From Bacillota bacterium (lineage in GTDB: Bacteria; Bacillota; Sulfobacillia; Fermentithermobacillales; Fermentithermobacillaceae): DNA of 64,000 nucleotides. The stretch covers positions 117,972-181,971 of the forward strand of contig JBMNKK010000001.1 of assembly GCA_050952125.1 (NCBI GenBank), given 5' to 3'. A program made the position numbers and the translations under genes. Below the pieces are notes generated by a model. That model worked only from the letters and a program-made list of their open reading frames with translations, was not told the origin of the DNA and did not search any database. Positions 3,424 through 62,799 of this stretch are shown here, in pieces (the stretch's first letter is position 1; each line of letters starts with the position of its first letter).

Positions 3424-4605
3424 ATGCTGCCGGAAAACGTCAAGACAACACTCCGGGAGGAACTGGAAAACCTTAGGCCTGATTTTGTCGCGATGGCTAA
3501 GGAGATGTGGGACAACCCCGAACACGCGCTCCGCGAGTTCAAGGCTGCCAATCTCATCTGCGACACTCTGGCCAAGGCCGGCTTCAAAGTCGAAAAGCCG
3601 GTCGGCGGGCTTGAGACAGCCTTTATCGCCTCGCACGGCGACGAGGACTCTCCCCGGGTCGCCCTGTTGGCGGAGTACGATGCCACACCCGGTTTCGGAC
3701 ACGCTTGCGGCCATAACCTCATCGCCTCTACCGCGGTCGCTGCGGCTAGAGCGCTCGCCAAGATGGGACACCCCGGACAACTGCTCGTTGTAGGATGCCC
3801 GGGAGAGGAAGGCGGCGGAGGCAAGATATTCCTCACAGAGAGCGGCTGCTTCGACGGAATTGACGCAGCCATATACCTCCACCCCTTCTATCTGACCAGG
3901 ATTGGCGGCCGTACTGCTGCGACGATAAACGTGGAACTTAAGTTCACGGGGCGCCCGGCTCATGCCGGAAGGGCGCCTCACACAGGCATCAACGCTCTAG
4001 CTGCGCTTACGGGCACATTCACGCTGCTAGGCCTTCTTAACCAGCAGCTCCCCCCTGACATCCGCTACAACTGGGTAGTGAGCGAAGGTGGGCGAGGCAC
4101 AGGAATAGTACCGGATATCGCTGCAGCCAAAGTAGGTCTCAGAGGGTCATCACACAGACAGGTAGAGTCGCTCTTCAAACACCTTGAAAACTGCGCCAAG
4201 GGAGCATCCATCGCGACCGGCGCGGAGCTCGAGATTAAGAAGGGACTTTCCTATATGCCGCGGCTCACAAACCCCGTCATCGCCAAGGTGATGGAGGATT
4301 ACCTCAAGGAAGCCGGTTTCGAGTGCGATCCCATGCCCGAGCAGGAGTTCGGTAGCACGGACGTGGGTCACGTCAGCATGCGCGTCCCTACGGTTGAAGG
4401 TTACGTCCAGATCTGCGATCGCGACATCCCCAACCACACCAAAGGCTTTGAGGAGGCCGCCAACTCCGAGAGAGGGTTTGAGGCCATGCTCAAAGGCGCG
4501 TGGGCTCTCGCCTGCACGGCGCTGACACTCTTGACCGACGCTTCGCTGGTAGAAGGTGCGTGGGAGAAACAGCGCGAGGGGGTGAAAGCGCGAGAATCCG
4601 AGTGA
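3424..4605 (+). CDS. M20D-family amidohydrolase (N-acyl-amino-acid / hippurate hydrolase-like), M20-1
   Basis: Contains the GHACGHN metal-binding motif typical of M20D amidohydrolases. Start refined to the ATG at 3424, preceded by GGAAGGAGG. The ORF track extends it to 3376. Confidence 0.8.
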   Translation: MLPENVKTTLREELENLRPDFVAMAKEMWDNPEHALREFKAANLICDTLAKAGFKVEKPVGGLETAFIASHGDEDSPRVALLAEYDATPGFGHACGHNLIASTAVAAARALAKMGHPGQLLVVGCPGEEGGGGKIFLTESGCFDGIDAAIYLHPFYLTRIGGRTAATINVELKFTGRPAHAGRAPHTGINALAALTGTFTLLGLLNQQLPPDIRYNWVVSEGGRGTGIVPDIAAAKVGLRGSSHRQVESLFKHLENCAKGASIATGAELEIKKGLSYMPRLTNPVIAKVMEDYLKEAGFECDPMPEQEFGSTDVGHVSMRVPTVEGYVQICDRDIPNHTKGFEEAANSERGFEAMLKGAWALACTALTLLTDASLVEGAWEKQREGVKARESE

Positions 4606-21218: not shown

Positions 21219-22442
21219 TTAAGGCAGCTTTTTCAGCACAAGGGTCGCAGCGTCAATCGTGCCTGCCGACTCCATTACATACCACGGGTAGGGCCTTCCG
21301 CTTCCGGCGAACTCGTCTCTAGCCCACGTGACAAACCTCTCAACCCGCTCTGTATCTTCCATGATCGCGGCTGTGACCGCGATCTTGGCCCAGGGGAACC
21401 GGTCGCCCGTTATCCCCTGATCCCAGAGCGGGAATTGCTCGTTGAACTTGGCCCAGATACCTGCCGCCTTTTCGCTTTCAGGCTCAAGGAGGCCGCACAG
21501 TATGAGGTCAGTTTGTGACACGGCGTCAGGGTACCACTTACCTTGTCTCGGAAACCGCTTGCCCAGCCAAGATAGAGACCACGCGTAAGACTCTTTTTCC
21601 GCGTCGTAGAGCACCTCATCAATGCCTTGAGAAACCCTTTCCGCAGCATCCTCGTATTGAGAGGCCAGCTTGTCCTCGCCGAAAAAGCGGAGCACGCCTG
21701 CCCAGTCCAACAGCCCCCGGTAGCATTCCGAGTTGTCCATGAGATACTTGGTCCTCGATCCGGGCATCACCCTGACCAGTCCGTCGGTATCCTGCAACTT
21801 CAATATGGCTTTGGCGGCAAGGTCAATGGAATCGAGATTCAACTCCACGAACTCGACGTCTCGAGTCGAGTTGAAGTAGTAGGACACAAGGGATAGGAAG
21901 GTTGCCGCATAGCTGTCGGCGGAGTCATATCTGTACGTCGGCACCAACTGACCGTCACGCTTGACATAGTCATATATGGTGCCTGCGAGGCCGTTTCTGT
22001 CAGGATTGTTCATGTTGGTGAGATACCATGAGATGTAATTCTTGGCTCTCTGCGGCTCGATATCCACGAGAGTCTTAGCAGCAAGGTTTGCGAAATAGGG
22101 CACGACGAGGTCCTGCTGGGGGGTCTGTGCTATCGCGCCGTTAGGCATCTGACTTTGGAGGAGCCACTCTTTCTCAGATTCCAGATAGGCGAGGTCGCTT
22201 GTAGCCCAGTCTGGGCTGACGCTCGCCTCTGCAACCCGGGTCCCATCTACTGAACTTCGGTCATTCGAATACTTGCTCTTAAGAAGCCATACCTCGTCTT
22301 TCAGCCTGGCAAGCACGGGGACGCCGCGGTAGGACGCTACCGCGATTGCTGCCAGCGCCACTGCAGCGCATACACCTACTATTCGAATGAACGACACCCT
22401 TCTTCTCACCACGCGCTCCGGCATTCGGGGCCTCCCAAGCAC
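21219..22442 (-). CDS. Hypothetical membrane-anchored protein
   Basis: 407 aa with an N-terminal TM anchor. No recognisable motifs. Confidence 0.55.
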   Translation of the reverse strand: MLGRPRMPERVVRRRVSFIRIVGVCAAVALAAIAVASYRGVPVLARLKDEVWLLKSKYSNDRSSVDGTRVAEASVSPDWATSDLAYLESEKEWLLQSQMPNGAIAQTPQQDLVVPYFANLAAKTLVDIEPQRAKNYISWYLTNMNNPDRNGLAGTIYDYVKRDGQLVPTYRYDSADSYAATFLSLVSYYFNSTRDVEFVELNLDSIDLAAKAILKLQDTDGLVRVMPGSRTKYLMDNSECYRGLLDWAGVLRFFGEDKLASQYEDAAERVSQGIDEVLYDAEKESYAWSLSWLGKRFPRQGKWYPDAVSQTDLILCGLLEPESEKAAGIWAKFNEQFPLWDQGITGDRFPWAKIAVTAAIMEDTERVERFVTWARDEFAGSGRPYPWYVMESAGTIDAATLVLKKLP

Positions 22443-22623: not shown

Positions 22624-23586
22624 TCACATAGTTATGTGTCCAGGCGTTTTTGGGAACGGCCTGACCCTTGTGATCTCGCGCTCGCCTGTGACAAACCTGA
22701 CAAGGCGCTCAATTCCAATGCCGAACCCGCTTGTGGGGTTGAGACCGGCCTCAGCCATTGCTAGGAACTCGCTGAAATCCAGAGGGTCTAGATTGCTCTC
22801 CCGGATTCGCTTCATGATGCTCTCGGGCAGGTACTCCCTCTCACCCCCGGATATGGCCTCTCCGAAACCCTCAGGGTAAAGGAGATCCATGCTCCGCACG
22901 GTTCTGCCGTCACCTGATTCTCTGTAGTAGAAACTCCGGCACTTCTTCGGGTAATCGGTAATCCAAAGGAACTCGCCCACCTCAGCAGAGACTTTTGATT
23001 CGGCCTCCTGCGTGAGTTCTTCACCAAAACGTATAAGCATTCCGTGCGCCGCGGCTATCTTTAGCGCATCCTCGTACCGGATCCGTGTAAAGGGAACCTT
23101 GGGGACCTTAAGCTCGCGACCCAGAGCTCGCAGGAGCGGCTGCCAGTCATGGACAACACGGGCTATTGTCGACGCGATCATCTCCTCGGCAACTCGCATG
23201 CTGTCCTCGAAAGTAGCACCGGCCTCCTCCAAATCAAGCTGGCAGAACTCCACTAAGTGCCTACCTGAATCCGCATTAGTCACAGGCTCCAGCCTGACGT
23301 TTGGACTGAAAGAGTAGATGCGGCCAAATGCGGTTGCCAAGACCTGCTTGTGAAACACCATGGAACTGGTGAGGTATGCCTTCCCCTCATACAGAGAGAC
23401 GGGGAGCCTCTCGGCACCTCGAAGGCCCGGATCGGTTATCTTGGAGACTATCGGTGGGAGGAATTCGACAAACCCCTGGGTTCCAAGGTAGTCTCTTAGG
23501 GAATCGGTAACCGCCTGGCTCAACCGGAACACCGCTTGAGCCTCTTCTGACTGCAGGTAAGTAAGGTAGGACACTTCTCTTTCCAC
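22624..23586 (-). CDS. Class-II aaRS-like catalytic-domain protein, probably an archaeal-type asparagine synthetase A (AsnRS paralog lacking the anticodon-binding domain)
   Basis: Motif 3 GFGIGIERLV and a motif-2-like FSPNVRLE. About 320 aa with no N-terminal OB fold. GTG start with AGGGGG RBS. Preceded by a T-box leader. Confidence 0.6.
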   Translation of the reverse strand: MEREVSYLTYLQSEEAQAVFRLSQAVTDSLRDYLGTQGFVEFLPPIVSKITDPGLRGAERLPVSLYEGKAYLTSSMVFHKQVLATAFGRIYSFSPNVRLEPVTNADSGRHLVEFCQLDLEEAGATFEDSMRVAEEMIASTIARVVHDWQPLLRALGRELKVPKVPFTRIRYEDALKIAAAHGMLIRFGEELTQEAESKVSAEVGEFLWITDYPKKCRSFYYRESGDGRTVRSMDLLYPEGFGEAISGGEREYLPESIMKRIRESNLDPLDFSEFLAMAEAGLNPTSGFGIGIERLVRFVTGEREITRVRPFPKTPGHITM

Positions 23587-23903
23587 TTATTCTGCCCCCT
23601 AAACGAAATAGCCCCGTCCCTAAAGGGACGAGGCGTTTGCTCGCGTTGCCACCCTAATTGGCTCTATAGTAAGCCCAACTCGCCAAGGTGCGGGATTAAC
23701 ACGTTTCCTGCTAATCCGATACCTAGCTGCCTGTAACGGTGCAGTTCCGTCCGCGTCTACTCCCGCCGGGATCACGTGGCGGTTTCGGGCGGCGCTCTGA
23801 GGTGTTATTCGCCTTGGGCGTCAGGCCGGTCTTCCACCCTCCCGGCTCGCTGCACTGCGTCTCCGAAGGCTACTGGTCCTCATCATCGCTTTCTGCCGCT
23901 GTT
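23587..23903 (-). promoter_or_regulatory. T-box riboswitch leader
   Basis: On the minus strand, AATTAGGGTGGCAACGCGAG (T-box consensus AAUUAGGGUGGNACCGCG) lies at plus 23642-23659. It is immediately followed by the terminator hairpin gcctcgtccc-ttta-gggacggggc plus a U-rich tail (plus 23611-23635). Candidate specifier GAAUAACA (AAU/AAC = Asn) at plus 23804-23809. Confidence 0.75.
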
Positions 23904-23909
23904 TGTGAA

Positions 23910-23938
23910 ACTATACTCCCTGAATGAAGCATCGTCAA
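23910..23938 (-). promoter_or_regulatory. Sigma-A type promoter for the T-box/asnA-like transcript
   Basis: Minus-strand TTGACG (plus 23933-23938), 17 bp spacer, then TATAGT (plus 23910-23915). Confidence 0.6.
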
Positions 23939-24135
23939 GGGCGGAAGAAAGGTTAATCCCCGCACCAATCCGCGTACCCTCTAGAGTCAGTTGACATAAC
24001 CACTTACTTTGCGTTATTCGCAACGTTTTTCGGGGGAACTTTGCGTTTTTGCAGCGGAGCACTGCAAAAACGCAAAGTTGACAGATTTCGCGTAATGAAA
24101 AACGCAATGTTCGTGCGACCACCGGACCTCCGGCC

Positions 24136-25074
24136 CTACCCCTTCCTTTTGAAGAGCCTTACTTTGTCCTTGTCCTGCAACACATGGCTTTTCCCGACCA
24201 CCTGGCCGGGAAACTTGGCGGATGGGCCCCAGATCGCTGCTCTATCCAGTTCCCTAGCGAGTTCAAGGTGGATGTGTGCTGCGAGGTCTGCCACCGTAGA
24301 CCCGGAGGGTATGAGGAAAGGGCGGTCAGTAGGTGACTGAGCGCTGTATATCCTCATGAGCCCTGTCATAGTCCACAAAGCTTCGGCCAACGCATCGAGA
24401 CCGCTCCCTGTCGCAGTGGATACCGGAACAACGGTGATACCGGCGAAACCGAAGCGTGCGTGAGCCGCTTCCAGAATCGCATCGGCACCGGGCAAATCGG
24501 CCTTTGTTGCAGCAACGGCGAACTTTTGCCCCTCAAGGATGTGCTGTATCTCCTCAAGAAACCGCTCAAACCCGCTTGAATCCTCCAGCGGCATGACTAC
24601 GAGGTAGCCGTCGGCATCCTGAGCGGCAGCAAGATACATGCGTCCGCTGCCCCTGTCCTCTCTGGCGCCCTCAATCAGGCCGGGGATCTCAACAAGTTGG
24701 ATGCGCGCCTCGTTGATCACGGCCGTAGCGGCGATCGGACGGAGCGTGGTGAAGGCATAGTCGCCGACCTTGACGCTGCTGCCGCACAGCCCCTTCAGCA
24801 GCGACGACTTTCCCGCGTTCGGTGGCCCCAGCAGGACTATGCGAGCGTCGCCTTCCCTCGGAACGAACGTGCCGTCGGCGTGGCGCACCTCCCGCCTCTT
24901 CCGGGTTGTTTCCATCTCCCGCGTGAGCCACTTGCGCAGGTCTGCGTAAGGACCCTGCTTATAGCCGGGAAGCATAGCCATGCACTCTCGGGCGACCTTG
25001 AGTCGCTCGGCACCATCGGTTCCGCGCAGGCGCCTCTGTATAAGTCTTTTCATCTCTGCATGCGGCATAGGCAT
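24136..25074 (-). CDS. Obg/DRG-like GTPase with C-terminal TGS domain
   Basis: G1 GPPNAGKSSL, the LVEIPGLIEGA switch typical of the Obg/DRG family, and a C-terminal TGS-like beta-grasp. Start refined to the ATG at 25074, with GAGGAGGAA 8 nt upstream. Confidence 0.7.
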   Translation of the reverse strand: MPMPHAEMKRLIQRRLRGTDGAERLKVARECMAMLPGYKQGPYADLRKWLTREMETTRKRREVRHADGTFVPREGDARIVLLGPPNAGKSSLLKGLCGSSVKVGDYAFTTLRPIAATAVINEARIQLVEIPGLIEGAREDRGSGRMYLAAAQDADGYLVVMPLEDSSGFERFLEEIQHILEGQKFAVAATKADLPGADAILEAAHARFGFAGITVVPVSTATGSGLDALAEALWTMTGLMRIYSAQSPTDRPFLIPSGSTVADLAAHIHLELARELDRAAIWGPSAKFPGQVVGKSHVLQDKDKVRLFKRKG

Positions 25075-25504
25075 TTCGCATTCCTCCTCTTCACTGGGCG
25101 CCGGAGTAACGCTTCCGGCGCAGCTGCGGCCTCCCAAATGCACCTTTGGTGCCCCGGTCCCTCAAGAAGAGGCGGCAATGTGCGCTCCTTACGGAGCGCC
25201 CTCATTGAACGCTGTACAGTTGAAAGCTGTGCAAATGAAGAAGGGCCGGCGGTCCGGCCCCTAATTCCAGATAAGCGACGATTTCTGCGGTAGTCTAGAC
25301 TCTTCTAAGGGCGGCCGCTAAGGGTTGAAAAGGGCATAGTGACCCCTTGGTGCCGTCCCCGGACATGCGCGATCACGTGTCTGTGCAGCAAAAGGTCTGT
25401 TATCTGCCCCTTGCTCATCCCGCGGCCTCCTTTCATAAGTCTCCTAACACCAACACCCACATTGTAGCCAGCTAGGCATCTCTTGGCAACGATCACCAGG
25501 ATAG

Positions 25505-60516: not shown

Positions 60517-62799
60517 CTATGCTTCCGGATCTGCCTCCGGCTCGACTGCAGTCTTCTGGGAGTCGACCTCGGCTTCTTCCTCCGGCTTGCACTCTTCCAC
60601 CTCGGCTGGTTCTGCCTGGGGTTCCGGCTCGACCGGTTCCGGTTCCGCTTGCTCCGGCACGGTCTCCGGTGCCGCCGGCTCCTGAGCGTCAACTTCCGGC
60701 GCAGCCGGAGCAGCCGCGGGTTCGACTTCCATGGCAGGCGACTCAGGCTCGTCTGAAGCCGGCGCCTGACCGTCTTCGGTGATAAGCTGGTCAGCCTGCT
60801 TGATCGACAGGCTGATACGCCGTTCATCCGGCCTTACCCTGAGAACCTTAACCCTCACAGTATCGCCTGAGCGCACCGCGTCCTCGGGTTTGGTCACATG
60901 GTAGACGGCAACCTCGGATATGTGAACCAGGCCCTCGACACCGGGCTCCAGCTGAACAAACGCGCCAAACGGAGCCGTCCTGGTGACTTCGCCGGTTACA
61001 ACCGATCCGACAGGATACTTCTCCTCAACCCCAAGCCAAGGATCGGGCAGAACCTGCTTGCGGCCTAGAGAAATCTTCCCCTTCTCCTTGTCGACTCTCA
61101 GAACCTTTACCTCGATTTCTTGGCCCTCGCGGACGACCTCGGAAGGATGCTTGACGCGGCCCCAAGAGAGCTCGGAGATATGCAGCAAACCGTCAACCCC
61201 GCCTAGGTCAACGAAGACTCCAAAGTCGGTAAGGCCCTTGACGACTCCGGCGCGAACCTGCCCTTCGGCAATGCTCTCCCAAGTCTCTTGGCAAAGCTTC
61301 TGATGCTCCTCCTCAAGGACCACCCTCTGTGACAGCACAACACGGTTCTTGCTTCTGTCGAGCTCGAGAACCTTGAGCCTGAGCGTCTGTCCCACGTACT
61401 TTGAAAGGTCGTTAACGTAGCCCCTCTCTACCTGAGACGCGGGCACAAATCCTCTAAGTCCGACATCAACCACAAGGCCGCCCTTTACTTCCTGCGATAC
61501 GGGAGCTTCAATGACCGTCCCCTGCTCAAAGGCTTCCTCGAGTTTTTGCCAGTTTGCGTCCTCGTCAGCTTTTCTCTTGGAGAGCCGTAGGCCGCCCTCG
61601 GCAGAATCGGAGCTCACGACATAGACCATGATTTCATCGCCGGGAGACAGCGTACCCGTTGAGAACGCGCTTTTGCGGTTCAGTTCTGAGGCAGGAATCA
61701 GCCCCTCTGATTTCGCCCCCACATCGACCAAAGCGCCGTTATCATCAACTGAGACTACGCGCCCCTTGATGATCTGCCCGGCTTCGAGGGAACGAAAAGA
61801 CTCGTCGTACATCTCGGCTGCTGTCTTCTCGTCGGTCACTTCCATGTCCTCGGTGCTGGGCTCTTCCGCACTCTCTTCCTTCGCAGGCACATCGTCTGCA
61901 GAAGGAGATTCCGCTTTCGTGGGTTGGTCTTCGTGCTCTTTCTCCACCATGGACTTTTCAATTTCCTCCACTTTGCCTACAACCTCCTTTATCACCCAGT
62001 CGGGAGTAGAAGCGCCCGCGGCTACTCCGACCGTCCGTTTCCCGGAAAACCAATCCGCGGAAACGTCTTCACTAGACTCCACGAGGTATGCCTGAGCCCC
62101 GCTCTCGCTGGCGATTTTGAGGAGCTGTCCCGTGTTGGCGCTTGTCCTTCCCCCGACCACGAGAATCACTTGGCACTCTTTGGCCAGTTCGGCGATGGCT
62201 TCCTGCCTATCGTGGGTTACAGTGCAGATAGTATTCTCTGATTGAATCGAAATACCTCTTTCCCTCAGAGTTTCCAGGACTTTTTCAACTTCCGACTCCC
62301 GGGCCGTCGTCTGAGACAAGACGCAAACGGCCTTCCCTTCCAGCTGCGGAGCAATCCTCTCTGCCGCGGCTGCATCGGGTACGCAGAAGGCTGTGCCGCC
62401 GGCGTGGGACAACACGGCATGCATCTCGGGATGGCTGGGATCTCCTACCAAGACCACGGTGTATCCCCGTCCGGCAAAATCCTTGGCCAACTGCTGGGTA
62501 CGCTTCACGTAGGGGCATACCGTGTCGACCGTCACCACTCCGTGAGGGACCTTGTTTAGTTCCTCGACTGCTGTCCCGTGGCTGCGCAGGATTAACGTGC
62601 CCCCGGTACAGTCAAGGGGCGAATCTACGTTTTTCACGCCCTTTGCGGCCAATTGAGCCTCGACCACCGGGTTGTGCACCACGGAACCCAAAGTCCACAC
62701 AGGGTGCGGCCCCTCTGCCACAGCCCTCTCGACGAGGTCCATTGCCCGCCTGACTCCCAGGCAGTAACCGCTACCCTTCATGACCTTTATCTTCAGCAT
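60517..62799 (-). CDS. ispH: Bifunctional 4-hydroxy-3-methylbut-2-enyl diphosphate reductase (IspH) / ribosomal protein S1-domain protein, with an acidic low-complexity C-terminal tail
   Basis: N-terminal IspH (VVHNPVVEAQL..., conserved Cys) followed by four S1 domains. The last roughly 90 aa are E/P/A-rich (EPEPVEPEPQAEPAEVEE...). Confidence 0.85.
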   Translation of the reverse strand: MLKIKVMKGSGYCLGVRRAMDLVERAVAEGPHPVWTLGSVVHNPVVEAQLAAKGVKNVDSPLDCTGGTLILRSHGTAVEELNKVPHGVVTVDTVCPYVKRTQQLAKDFAGRGYTVVLVGDPSHPEMHAVLSHAGGTAFCVPDAAAAERIAPQLEGKAVCVLSQTTARESEVEKVLETLRERGISIQSENTICTVTHDRQEAIAELAKECQVILVVGGRTSANTGQLLKIASESGAQAYLVESSEDVSADWFSGKRTVGVAAGASTPDWVIKEVVGKVEEIEKSMVEKEHEDQPTKAESPSADDVPAKEESAEEPSTEDMEVTDEKTAAEMYDESFRSLEAGQIIKGRVVSVDDNGALVDVGAKSEGLIPASELNRKSAFSTGTLSPGDEIMVYVVSSDSAEGGLRLSKRKADEDANWQKLEEAFEQGTVIEAPVSQEVKGGLVVDVGLRGFVPASQVERGYVNDLSKYVGQTLRLKVLELDRSKNRVVLSQRVVLEEEHQKLCQETWESIAEGQVRAGVVKGLTDFGVFVDLGGVDGLLHISELSWGRVKHPSEVVREGQEIEVKVLRVDKEKGKISLGRKQVLPDPWLGVEEKYPVGSVVTGEVTRTAPFGAFVQLEPGVEGLVHISEVAVYHVTKPEDAVRSGDTVRVKVLRVRPDERRISLSIKQADQLITEDGQAPASDEPESPAMEVEPAAAPAAPEVDAQEPAAPETVPEQAEPEPVEPEPQAEPAEVEECKPEEEAEVDSQKTAVEPEADPEA

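What the first reader, a model, noticed from the sequence alone, without database searches (positions are those of the whole stretch)
22624..23938. T-box riboswitch (candidate Asn specifier) controlling an aaRS-like asparagine synthetase paralog
On the minus strand a near-consensus promoter (TTGACG-N17-TATAGT) drives a roughly 320-nt leader. The leader ends with AATTAGGGTGGCAACGCGAG (the T-box motif) overlapping a terminator hairpin plus U-tract, immediately before the RBS of a 320-aa class-II aaRS catalytic-domain-only protein (motif 3 GFGIGIERL). A GAAUAACA stretch in the leader (plus 23804-23809) is a plausible specifier presenting AAU/AAC. That fits tRNA-Asn sensing for an AsnA-type ligase, but the specifier position is not verified. 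Both the T-box regulation and the AsnRS-paralog asparagine synthetase are lineage-restricted.
Basis: partly seen in the sequence, partly recalled or inferred. Interest (0 to 1): 0.5.

Follow-up and report, generated by a model that had tools for sequence, protein, structure and literature searches.

The report
Asparagine T-box controlling archaeal-type asparagine synthetase
A tRNA-sensing RNA switch (T-box) that reads the asparagine codon AAC sits in front of a shortened, synthetase-like gene most likely making asparagine; the switch is real and conserved in related uncultured Bacillota, but it follows a regulatory logic that is already known.

Summary

**T-box.** Rfam's T-box model matches window 23895..23621 (minus strand) end to end, at 99 bits against a gathering score of 93 (E = 1.4e-20). 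A TTGACG-17-TATAGT promoter lies upstream. A 10-bp terminator with a U-tract (-20.7 kcal/mol) overlaps the T-box sequence.

**Specifier.** It is AAC (Asn) at 23806..23804, not the neighbouring AAU. In 17 orthologous leaders from Bacillota metagenome genomes, AAC never changes, while the base before it is U, C, A or G. [quoted passage not shown] Stem I, stem II, the IIA/B pseudoknot, stem III, the antiterminator and the terminator are all present, and several pairs change on both sides.

**Protein.** The 320-aa product is a class II catalytic core with no anticodon-binding domain.
- Its best family matches are NCBIfam 'asparagine synthetase A' models (295 and 273 bits). Both are below their curated cut-offs. 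AsnRS scores 198.
- Its most similar solved structures by sequence are the Pyrococcus archaeal asparagine synthetases (36-37% identity).

**Mechanism (inferred).** Uncharged tRNA-Asn stabilises the antiterminator, the gene is read through, and asparagine is made.

**Verdict.** This is a new member of a known kind and of modest interest.

The parts
23910..23938 (-). Sigma-70-type promoter: TTGACG (23938..23933), 17-nt spacer, TATAGT (23915..23910)
   Evidence: The consensus scan gave 10 of 12 matches. Its position is conserved in 14 of 15 related loci that have upstream sequence.
23621..23895 (-). T-box leader, full Rfam RF00230 match
   Evidence: 99 bits against a gathering score of 93, E = 1.4e-20, model positions 1-219 of 219.
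23794..23889 (-). Stem I. It holds the K-turn (GAUGAU 23887..23882, opposite AGA 23798..23796), the specifier loop (ACCAGUA 23877..23871, opposite GAAUAACA 23810..23803), the AG bulge (23854..23847) and the distal loop GAGGGUGGAAGA (23841..23830).
   Evidence: Rfam alignment. In 15 distinct leaders, 89% of cells are paired and 9 pairs change on both sides. With the 3' partners slid by 1-3 columns, only 25-49% pair.
23804..23806 (-). Specifier codon AAC (Asn)
   Evidence: It occupies nucleotides 2-4 from the 3' end of the specifier loop. It is invariant in 17 of 17 leaders, while the preceding base varies.
23751..23792 (-). Stem II with S-turn (CCGAAA opposite GAGUAGA)
   Evidence: Read from the sequence. 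The basal helix CCGC/GCGG becomes CCAC/GUGG or GCUG/CAGC in relatives.
23727..23750 (-). Stem IIA/B pseudoknot. It includes the F-box CCGUUA (23739..23734), and loop CUGC pairs with the downstream GCAG.
   Evidence: Read from the sequence. L002 has CCGC/GCGG at the same positions.
23686..23724 (-). Extra hairpin between stem IIA/B and stem III. The base is conserved (AGGUAUCGG... / ...CCCGCACCU); the tip varies in length.
   Evidence: It falls in an insertion relative to the Rfam model. Of the 17 intact leaders, the 15 whose segment was extracted and folded all form a hairpin here; the distance from the F-box to the T-box sequence is 59-130 nt. For the window and L003 the extraction failed, so the window hairpin is read from the sequence, not folded.
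23660..23675 (-). Stem III
   Evidence: All 4 pairs change on both sides somewhere among the relatives.
23624..23655 (-). Antiterminator. It includes the conserved T-box sequence (23659..23640) and the UGGC bulge (23651..23648), which would pair with the 3'-GCCA end of tRNA.
   Evidence: Rfam alignment. 88.7% of cells are paired over all 13 counted pairs, stem III included; 92.6% and 91.8% for the two antiterminator helices. The bulge reads UGGC in 16 of 18 leaders and UGGU in 2. Alone it is only marginally stable, -9 kcal/mol.
23601..23634 (-). Intrinsic terminator: a 10-bp stem at 23634..23611, then UAUUUCGUUU. It shares CCUCGUCCC with the antiterminator.
   Evidence: Found by the scan. -20.7 kcal/mol, z = -5.9. 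93% of cells are paired in the helix. A U-A pair becomes C-G in 6 leaders, and the same base still pairs with G in the antiterminator.
23595..23600 (-). Shine-Dalgarno sequence AGGGGG, 8 nt before the GTG start
   Evidence: Read from the sequence. GGAGG or GGGGG is conserved at this position in relatives.
22624..23586 (-). Gene for a 320-aa class II catalytic-core-only protein, an archaeal-type asparagine synthetase A-like paralogue of AsnRS
   Evidence: PF00152 only. NCBIfam asparagine synthetase A models score 295 and 273 bits against 198 for AsnRS. PDB sequence matches 1nnh and 3p8t. AlphaFold2 model with pLDDT 93 and fold matches. Motif residues are invariant in 63 homologues.

Best explanation
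This is a transcriptional T-box riboswitch specific for tRNA-Asn. It controls a single gene for an archaeal-type asparagine synthetase: an AsnRS-derived catalytic core with no anticodon-binding domain.

**How it would work.** Transcription starts about 7 nt after the TATAGT box and produces a leader of about 317 nt.
- When tRNA-Asn is mostly charged, the strong terminator at 23634..23611 forms and transcription stops before the gene.
- When asparagine is scarce, uncharged tRNA-Asn (anticodon GUU) binds in three places. Its anticodon pairs with the AAC specifier in stem I. Its elbow docks on the stem I distal platform. Its free 3'-GCCA end pairs with the UGGC bulge.
- That binding stabilises the weak antiterminator at 23655..23624, so the polymerase reads through.
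- The enzyme then makes asparagine from aspartate, ATP and ammonia. An AsnRS encoded elsewhere in the genome uses it to recharge tRNA-Asn.

**Shown here:** the RNA family membership, all structural modules, the position and conservation of the specifier, the mutually exclusive helices, and the domain architecture and family affinity of the protein.

**Inferred:** tRNA binding, the regulatory outcome, the enzyme's reaction, and the presence of an AsnRS in this genome.
For: **RNA**
- The Rfam T-box match is above the gathering score and covers the full model.
- All 17 intact orthologous loci in Bacillota metagenome genomes carry a T-box directly upstream (80-105 bits). The archaeal homologue loci that were scanned (L012-L016) have none.
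- AAC is invariant, while the base before it takes all four values. AAC is also the codon expected from the positional rule and from the preference for C-ending specifiers (PMC7778990).
- The UGGC bulge is complementary to G73-CCA, and G73 is an identity element of tRNA-Asn (PMC9976931).
- Pairs with changes on both sides support stem I, stem III and the terminator, and stem II and the pseudoknot. Changes in the antiterminator helices are on one side only.
- The terminator folds at -20.7 kcal/mol against -9 for the antiterminator alone. That is the expected default-off design.
- The promoter is conserved in position.

**Protein**
- Alignment to AsnRS and AspRS begins at their residues ~123-128, so the N-terminal anticodon-binding domain is absent.
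- The best profile matches are two 'asparagine synthetase A' models.
- The highest identity to a solved structure is 36-37%, to the Pyrococcus archaeal asparagine synthetase A.
- The nearest homologues outside Bacillota are archaeal proteins that NCBI names asparagine synthetase A.
- The motif 2 and motif 3 residues (R98, E100, H110, E113, Q116, D118, E120, S246-G247, E249-R250, G287...R294) are invariant across 63 bacterial and archaeal homologues. This indicates an active enzyme.

**Context**
- In distant relatives only the T-box plus the gene is conserved. In L009 the next gene is convergent, so the unit is monocistronic.
Against: - The protein scores below the curated cut-offs of both best NCBIfam models (295 against 368; 273 against 309).
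- In a plain sequence search of the PDB, an archaeal AsnRS scores almost as well as the archaeal asparagine synthetases (147.6 bits against 150.8-157.9).
- By fold, the catalytic domains of AsnRS and AspRS cover the model slightly better (TM-score normalised to the query 0.90 against 0.80-0.82). Neither fold nor PDB sequence similarity therefore separates a synthetase from an Asn-forming ligase.
- No tRNA-Asn gene and no AsnRS gene is available from this organism to check the anticodon, the discriminator or the pathway.
- The base after the specifier is C rather than the usual purine in three relatives: L006, L008 and L009.
- The U-tract is interrupted (UAUUUCGUUU).
Confidence: 0.82

Rival explanations
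1. The T-box is real, but the protein is a truncated, still functional asparaginyl-tRNA synthetase, or a catalytic subunit of one, not an asparagine synthetase. The switch would then raise charging capacity, not asparagine supply.
For: - JGI annotates the 99%-identical protein P0001 as asparaginyl-tRNA synthetase.
- Archaeal AsnRS scores almost as well as the archaeal asparagine synthetases in the PDB sequence search.
- AsnRS and AspRS cores give the highest query-normalised TM-scores.
- The protein is below the cut-offs of the asparagine synthetase A models.
- Asn T-boxes also precede asnS in some Firmicutes (PMC2494555).
Against: - There is no anticodon-binding domain, although the anticodon is a major identity element for AsnRS (PMC9976931).
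- The asparagine synthetase A profiles beat the AsnRS profile by about 100 bits.
- Sequence identity is highest to the structurally characterised archaeal asparagine synthetase A. From my own knowledge (Roy et al. 2003, PNAS), the Pyrococcus enzyme makes asparagine and does not charge tRNA.
Confidence: 0.08
2. The specifier is read one base further 3' (ACA, or ACC in some relatives), so the switch senses tRNA-Thr rather than tRNA-Asn.
For: The triplet shifted by +1 is ACA in 14 leaders and ACC in 3. Both are Thr codons, so conservation alone does not exclude this frame. TBDB treats the +1 frame as a possible alternative.
Against: - The canonical frame is nucleotides 2-4 from the loop end, and that gives AAC.
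- The bulge is UGGC in 16 of 18 leaders, which calls for a G73 discriminator as in tRNA-Asn. From my own knowledge, bacterial tRNA-Thr usually has A73 or U73.
- The regulated gene belongs to the Asn/Asp branch of class II enzymes.
Confidence: 0.03
3. The leader is a decaying or non-functional T-box remnant, or it acts on translation rather than on transcription.
For: - The Rfam score is only 6 bits above the gathering score, and 12 of the 17 orthologous leaders fall just below it.
- The U-tract is interrupted.
- One related locus, L017, is clearly decayed.
Against: - All modules are intact and supported by paired changes in 17 loci spanning 55-99% protein identity.
- The lower scores are explained by insertions in stem II and by the extra hairpin.
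- The Shine-Dalgarno sequence lies outside both alternative helices, and a strong terminator hairpin is conserved.
Confidence: 0.03

Closest known systems
Transcriptional T-box leaders of Firmicutes (Rfam RF00230), in particular Asn-specific ones such as the Lactobacillus bulgaricus asnA-asnS leader (Kim et al. 1996, J Bacteriol 178:2459; its title is cited in PMC3412718)
   Same: - The modular architecture is the same: stem I with K-turn, specifier loop, AG bulge and distal loop; stem II; the IIA/B pseudoknot; stem III; and a T-box bulge with competing antiterminator and terminator.
- The logic is the same: uncharged tRNA-Asn induces an asparagine-supplying gene.
- The AAC specifier and the UGGC bulge fit tRNA-Asn.
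   Different: - The regulated enzyme is not E. coli-type AsnA (there is no PF03590 hit). It is an AsnRS-derived archaeal-type enzyme.
- The gene is monocistronic rather than linked to asnS.
- The leader carries an extra hairpin of variable length between stem IIA/B and stem III.
- The hosts are uncultured, high-GC Bacillota; the closest named ones are Candidatus Fermentithermobacillaceae.
Archaeal asparagine synthetase A (AsnRS2 / AS-AR) of Pyrococcus abyssi and P. furiosus (PDB 3P8T, 3REU, 3REX, 3RL6, 1NNH)
   Same: - It is a class II catalytic core with motifs 2 and 3 and no anticodon-binding domain.
- Identity is 36-37%, with target-normalised TM-scores of 0.87-0.90.
- The EF-x-QLD-x-E and SGGERE motifs are shared.
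   Different: - The protein here is about 26 residues longer (320 against 294 aa). It keeps a longer insertion around residues 150-200, as in AsnRS and AspRS cores and in the ~330-aa archaeal homologues.
- It is bacterial and sits under a bacterial-only riboswitch.
- It scores below the NCBIfam equivalog cut-offs.
- Its activity has not been tested.
Asparaginyl-tRNA synthetase (AsnRS), e.g. Pyrococcus horikoshii 1X54
   Same: The catalytic-domain fold and the ATP and amino-acid binding motifs are shared (query-normalised TM-score 0.90, 28% identity).
   Different: The N-terminal anticodon-binding domain is missing. The AsnRS profile scores 198 bits against a cut-off of 414.
Clostridium acetobutylicum Asn T-box controlling the ND-AspRS/GatCAB operon (Saad et al. 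2012, 2013; cited in PMC4206432)
   Same: A T-box ties tRNA-Asn charging to a route that supplies asparagine.
   Different: - That system controls the tRNA-dependent transamidation route. This one controls a tRNA-independent synthetase-like ligase.
- That T-box is described as reading two codons. Here the apparent AAU-AAC pair is an accident of this one sequence.

Membership tests
T-box leader (Rfam RF00230) | Covariance-model score at or above the curated gathering score, over the full model | tested here: met
   99 bits against 93, model positions 1-219 of 219, E = 1.4e-20.
T-box leader (Rfam RF00230) | Stem I with K-turn, specifier loop with S-turn (AGUA / GAA), AG bulge and distal loop | tested here: met
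   All are placed by the model. The motif bases are invariant in 17 leaders. 89% of cells are paired and 9 pairs change on both sides, against 25-49% paired for slid controls.
T-box leader (Rfam RF00230) | Specifier codon at nucleotides 2-4 from the 3' end of the specifier loop, matching the anticodon of a tRNA of the host | tested here: inconclusive
   The position and conservation of AAC are shown. No tRNA-Asn gene from this organism or its relatives was available for comparison.
T-box leader (Rfam RF00230) | Stem II with S-turn, and the stem IIA/B pseudoknot with F-box | tested here: met
   CCGAAA opposite GAGUAGA, F-box CCGUUA, and loop CUGC pairing with downstream GCAG. Paired changes occur in relatives.
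T-box leader (Rfam RF00230) | Conserved T-box sequence with a UGGN bulge, in an antiterminator that competes with a terminator | tested here: met
   AAUUAGGGUGGCAACGCGAG is present. Antiterminator cells are 88.7% paired and terminator cells 89.7%. The two helices share a strand. Energies are -9 against -20.7 kcal/mol.
T-box leader (Rfam RF00230) | Readthrough depends on uncharged cognate tRNA | not testable with these tools
   This needs in vitro transcription or reporter assays.
Archaeal-type asparagine synthetase A (AS-AR; NCBIfam PRK06462 group) | Class II catalytic core with intact motifs 2 and 3 | tested here: met
   PF00152, E = 1.5e-54. R98, E100, H110, E113, Q116, D118, E120, S246, G247, E249, R250 and G287-R294 are invariant in 63 homologues.
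Archaeal-type asparagine synthetase A (AS-AR; NCBIfam PRK06462 group) | No N-terminal anticodon-binding domain | tested here: met
   The protein is 320 aa. Alignments to AsnRS and AspRS start at their residues ~123-128. Target-normalised TM-score is 0.66 for the synthetases and 0.87-0.90 for AS-AR.
Archaeal-type asparagine synthetase A (AS-AR; NCBIfam PRK06462 group) | Score above the curated equivalog cut-off of an asparagine synthetase A model | tested here: not met
   NF005052 scores 295.4 against a cut-off of 368. NF005054 scores 273 against 309. The protein is therefore filed as a relative of the group, not as a curated equivalog.
Archaeal-type asparagine synthetase A (AS-AR; NCBIfam PRK06462 group) | Closer to AS-AR than to AsnRS or AspRS | tested here: met
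   By profile: 295 and 273 bits against 198 (AsnRS) and 190 (AspRS). By identity: 36-37% against 20-29%. The margin is small in the PDB sequence search, 158 and 151 bits against 148.
Archaeal-type asparagine synthetase A (AS-AR; NCBIfam PRK06462 group) | Makes asparagine from aspartate, ATP and ammonia; does not charge tRNA | not testable with these tools
   This needs an enzyme assay or complementation of an asparagine auxotroph.
E. coli-type AsnA (aspartate-ammonia ligase, PF03590) | Match to the AsnA family profile | tested here: not met
   Only PF00152 is found at E <= 0.01.
Asparaginyl-tRNA synthetase | Anticodon-binding OB-fold plus catalytic domain; score above the curated cut-off | tested here: not met
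   NF003037 scores 197.6 against a cut-off of 414, and TIGR00457 scores 183.7 against 342.6. Only the C-terminal catalytic part aligns.

The most novel reading that the evidence does not exclude
The Bacillota proteins form their own clade. They are 55-99% identical to each other but only 40-48% identical to archaeal homologues, and they fall below the curated asparagine synthetase A cut-offs. Two more novel readings remain open. First, the clade might not be a plain ammonia-dependent asparagine synthetase. It could use a different acceptor or amide donor, or act on tRNA-Asn in trans with another protein. Second, the clade-specific hairpin of variable length between stem IIA/B and stem III might give the T-box a second regulatory input. 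A milder version is likely but untested: an archaeal-type gene was captured by a bacterial-only riboswitch after horizontal transfer.
Probability: 0.08. Interest if true: 0.55.

Novelty: new member of a known kind. Interest (0 to 1): 0.3.

Why it matters
The T-box gives independent, sequence-based evidence that this clade of synthetase-like proteins works in asparagine supply.

- Public annotation of the clade is inconsistent. JGI calls the proteins asparaginyl-tRNA synthetase, while NCBI calls a 65%-identical homologue asparagine synthetase A.
- The result implies that archaeal-type asparagine synthetase occurs in a branch of uncultured Bacillota, where it sits under a regulator found only in bacteria.
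- It predicts that these organisms use the direct AsnRS route to charge tRNA-Asn.

It does not change what is known about T-box mechanisms or about asparagine metabolism.

Tried and rejected
- **AAU as specifier, or a two-codon AAU-AAC specifier.** Rejected: the U varies among relatives.
- **Specifier frame -1** (UAA, CAA, AAA or GAA). Rejected: it varies, and in the window it is a stop codon.
- **Minimum-free-energy folding of the whole 321-nt leader.** Uninformative: z = -1.5, and the canonical stem I was not recovered. The covariance model and pair counts were used instead.
- **Looking for tRNA-Asn** in the window and in 18 loci to test the anticodon and discriminator. None was found.
- **Looking for AsnRS or AspRS paralogues** in the window by tblastn. 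None was found, so the Asn-tRNA route of this organism remains unknown.
- **Fold search against the PDB.** It confirmed the class IIb catalytic fold but could not separate a synthetase from an Asn-forming ligase.
- **Literature searches for a described T-box in front of an archaeal-type asparagine synthetase.** None was found in the held library. Several key papers are not held: Saad 2012, Vitreschak 2008 and Kim 1996 were requested without success; Roy 2003 and Blaise 2011 did not turn up in the searches and were not requested by id.
- **L017.** It first looked like an orthologue with a weak T-box (37.8 bits), but it is a decayed copy and was left out of the counts.
Full report
**1. The observation**

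On the minus strand, the stretch 23938..22624 contains, in order:
- a promoter, TTGACG-17 nt-TATAGT, at 23938..23910;
- a leader of about 317 nt;
- a hairpin GCCUCGUCCC-UUUA-GGGACGGGGC at 23634..23611, followed by UAUUUCGUUU;
- a Shine-Dalgarno sequence AGGGGG at 23600..23595;
- a GTG-initiated ORF of 320 aa at 23586..22624.

The simple consensus scan found both the promoter (10 of 12 matches) and the terminator. Rfam's T-box model RF00230 matches 23895..23621 over its whole length, at 99 bits against a gathering score of 93, E = 1.4e-20. Apart from a tRNA-Pro gene, it is the only RNA family hit in the 64-kb window.

**2. Anatomy of the leader**

The covariance-model alignment and direct reading give every module of a canonical transcriptional T-box.
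- *Stem I* (23889..23794) has a K-turn (GAUGAU opposite AGA), a specifier loop (5' strand ACCAGUA, 3' strand GAAUAACA), an AG bulge (UGCAGCGA) and a distal loop (GAGGGUGGAAGA).
- *Stem II* (23792..23751) has the S-turn CCGAAA opposite GAGUAGA.
- *The stem IIA/B pseudoknot* (23750..23727) has the F-box CCGUUA, and loop CUGC pairs with GCAG.
- *An extra hairpin* (23724..23686) is not part of the Rfam consensus.
- *Stem III* lies at 23675..23660.
- *The T-box sequence* AAUUAGGGUGGCAACGCGAG (23659..23640) forms an antiterminator (23655..23624) with a UGGCAAC bulge.

The 3' strand of the antiterminator, CCUCGUCCC, is also the 5' strand of the terminator, so the two structures exclude each other. 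Folded alone, the terminator is very stable (-20.7 kcal/mol, z = -5.9). The antiterminator is marginal (-9 kcal/mol, no better than shuffles). That is the expected design of a switch that is off unless a tRNA stabilises the antiterminator.

**3. Related sequences**

- The protein has a 99%-identical copy on a JGI metagenome contig, then a clade of proteins 55-78% identical, and then archaeal proteins at 40-48%.
- Scans of the genome and metagenome collections gave 17 bacterial loci, plus L035, which is the same organism as the window.
- All named hosts are Bacillota MAGs. The closest are Candidatus Fermentithermobacillaceae.
- Sixteen of the 17 loci are intact. With the window they give the 17 intact leaders compared below, and every one of these loci has a T-box directly upstream of the gene. 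Five are above the gathering score and eleven lie between 80 and 93 bits.
- The archaeal homologue loci that were scanned (L012-L016) have none.
- The seventeenth, L017, scores only 37.8 bits and is a decayed copy. Stem I is replaced by the end of an upstream ORF, and the gene is frameshifted and truncated.
- A promoter of the form TTGACN-17-TANNNT ends 9-15 nt before the T-box in 14 of the 15 loci with enough upstream sequence.
- Gene order around the locus is kept only in the closest relatives: a GTPase upstream; a 407-aa protein without Pfam hit, a 366-aa protein and PepF downstream. In more distant loci only the T-box plus the gene is conserved, and in L009 the next gene is convergent. The regulated unit is therefore this one gene.

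**4. The specifier**

In the alignment of 17 stem I sequences, the 3' strand of the specifier loop reads GAA-N-AAC-(A/C).
- AAC is invariant in 17 of 17 leaders.
- N is U, C, A, G or AG.

AAC occupies nucleotides 2-4 from the 3' end of the loop, which is the position TBDB uses to assign specifiers. TBDB also reports that C-ending codons are preferred in two-codon families (PMC7778990).

The triplet shifted by +1 (ACA or ACC, both Thr) is also conserved, so conservation alone does not exclude it. Three things speak against it:
- It is not the canonical frame.
- The variable base of the T-box bulge is C in 16 of 18 leaders and U in 2. C pairs with a G73 discriminator, and G73 is an identity element of tRNA-Asn (PMC9976931).
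- The regulated gene belongs to the Asn/Asp branch of class II enzymes.

No tRNA-Asn gene from these organisms was available to complete the test.

**5. Structural support from comparison**

- *Stem I.* For the structure taken from the Rfam alignment, 89% of cells form standard pairs in 15 distinct sequences, and 9 of 19 pairs change on both sides. No shuffle reaches the observed covariation score. Sliding the 3' partners by 1-3 columns drops pairing to 25-49%. The weakest helix is the one above the specifier loop, because MAFFT misaligns it. Read by eye, it is replaced by different complementary sequences, for example CUCCUG/CAGGAG in L002.
- *Stem III.* All four pairs change on both sides.
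- *Terminator helix.* It is 93% paired. One position is U in some leaders and C in others. It pairs with A or G respectively in the terminator, and with the same G in the antiterminator (G-U or G-C). Both alternative structures are thus maintained.
- *Stem II.* The basal helix changes from CCGC/GCGG to CCAC/GUGG and GCUG/CAGC.
- *Pseudoknot.* It changes from CUGC/GCAG to CCGC/GCGG in L002.

These counts come from related sequences and from a structure derived from one of them, so they are supportive rather than proof.

**6. The protein**

- Pfam finds only PF00152, the class II Asp/Lys/Asn synthetase core.
- Among NCBIfam models, the best are two 'asparagine synthetase A' equivalogs: NF005052 at 295 bits and NF005054 at 273 bits. 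These are well above AsnRS (198) and non-discriminating AspRS (190), but below their own curated cut-offs (368 and 309).
- Alignments to AsnRS and AspRS start at their residues ~123-128, so the anticodon-binding domain is absent.
- In the PDB, the best sequence matches are 1NNH and 3P8T, the Pyrococcus AsnRS-like protein and archaeal asparagine synthetase A. P. horikoshii AsnRS follows closely.
- An AlphaFold2 model is confident (pLDDT 93, pTM 0.91).
  - It superposes on archaeal AspRS and AsnRS catalytic domains with a query-normalised TM-score of 0.90.
  - It superposes on the archaeal asparagine synthetase A with 0.80-0.82 normalised to the query and 0.87-0.90 normalised to the target.
  - Sequence identity is highest to the archaeal asparagine synthetase A, 36-37%.
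- The protein is about 26 residues longer than the Pyrococcus enzyme and keeps a longer insertion around residues 150-200. The ~330-aa archaeal homologues do the same.
- The catalytic motifs are invariant in 63 bacterial and archaeal homologues, which argues for an active enzyme rather than a dead fragment.

Fold and PDB similarity cannot tell a synthetase core from an Asn-forming ligase. The assignment rests on the profile scores, the missing anticodon domain and the Asn-specific T-box.

**7. Mechanism**

The best-supported reading is classical T-box feedback. With ample asparagine, tRNA-Asn is charged, the terminator forms and the gene is silent. With scarce asparagine, uncharged tRNA-Asn(GUU) binds AAC and the UGGC bulge, the antiterminator holds, and the enzyme is made. 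It would then convert aspartate, ATP and ammonia to asparagine.

This logic needs an AsnRS in the genome. That fits the published observation that genomes encoding AsnA use AsnRS rather than GatCAB (PMC2330236). No such gene lies in the window, so this step is inferred.

**8. Comparison with what is known**

- T-box control of an asparagine synthetase gene was proposed for Lactobacillus bulgaricus asnA-asnS in 1996 (the title is cited in PMC3412718).
- Asn T-boxes on asnS, and on the transamidation operon of Clostridium acetobutylicum, are also described.
- The archaeal AsnRS-derived asparagine synthetase is structurally characterised (PMC3532385).

What is new here is the combination: an archaeal-type enzyme in an uncultured Bacillota lineage under an Asn T-box, with a clade-specific extra hairpin in the leader. 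I found no description of this in the held literature, but several key papers are not held.

**9. Verdict**

The finding is real and correctly interpreted, and the specifier is now fixed as AAC. It is a new member of a known kind. It is useful for annotation, since JGI labels these proteins as AsnRS. It also shows a transferred gene placed under a bacterial riboswitch. It would not surprise a specialist. Interest 0.3.

Noticed in passing
window 24001..24115 (intergenic, between the GTPase gene ending at 24136 and the T-box promoter): There are four copies of a 13-nt motif, ACTTTGCGTTWTT. Two are on each strand, spaced 32 nt apart, and they form nested inverted repeats. These include a perfect 18-nt palindrome, AACTTTGCGTTTTTGCAG / CTGCAAAAACGCAAAGTT (24037..24079), with 7 nt between the arms. 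The motif occurs nowhere else in the 64-kb window (expected 0.09). It is absent from all related loci except L035, which is the same organism. There is no U-tract after the hairpin. It could be an operator array or a small repeat element.
   Followed up: partly
window 23686..23724 (minus strand), and the same position in L001-L011 and L020-L024: An extra hairpin lies between the stem IIA/B pseudoknot and stem III. It is not part of the Rfam T-box consensus. Its base is conserved (GGUAUCGG... / ...CCCGUACC, with paired changes such as GGCAUC/GUGCU) and has a small conserved internal loop. Its tip varies: the distance from the F-box to the T-box sequence is 59-130 nt in the 15 leaders folded. 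The window's own segment was not extracted by that script, so its hairpin is read from the sequence. These insertions explain why most orthologous leaders score just below the Rfam gathering score.
   Followed up: partly
L017 3473..4703 (MAG Bacillota bacterium JAPXLN010000003.1): This is a decayed copy of the locus. Stem I of the T-box is replaced by the 3' end of an upstream ORF (3473..3769). Only stem II to the terminator survive (Rfam 37.8 bits). The synthetase-like gene is split into ORFs of 180 and 118 aa and is truncated.
   Followed up: yes
L006, L008, L009: base 3' of the specifier: The nucleotide after the AAC specifier is C rather than the usual conserved purine (AAC-C-CCCC) in three of the 17 leaders.
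   Followed up: no
window 60646..60742 (+): ARAGORN calls a 97-nt tRNA-Arg(CCU) here. It lies inside a 760-aa ORF (60517..62799, minus strand). The Rfam tRNA model does not support it, even at E <= 1. It is probably a false positive.
   Followed up: yes
window 22624..23586, and proteins P0001 and P0020: Public annotation is inconsistent. JGI names the 99%-identical protein 'asparaginyl-tRNA synthetase', while NCBI names a 65%-identical homologue 'asparagine synthetase A'. The protein has no anticodon-binding domain.
   Followed up: yes
window 21219..22442 (minus strand) and 24136..25143 (minus strand): The downstream 407-aa protein has no Pfam hit on record. The upstream GTPase has MMR_HSR1, FeoB_N and TGS domains. 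Both are syntenic with the locus only in the closest relatives: L001, L007, L011, L021 and L022. The 182-nt gap after the synthetase-like gene holds only a weak hairpin, CATCGC-TAT-GCGATG.
   Followed up: partly
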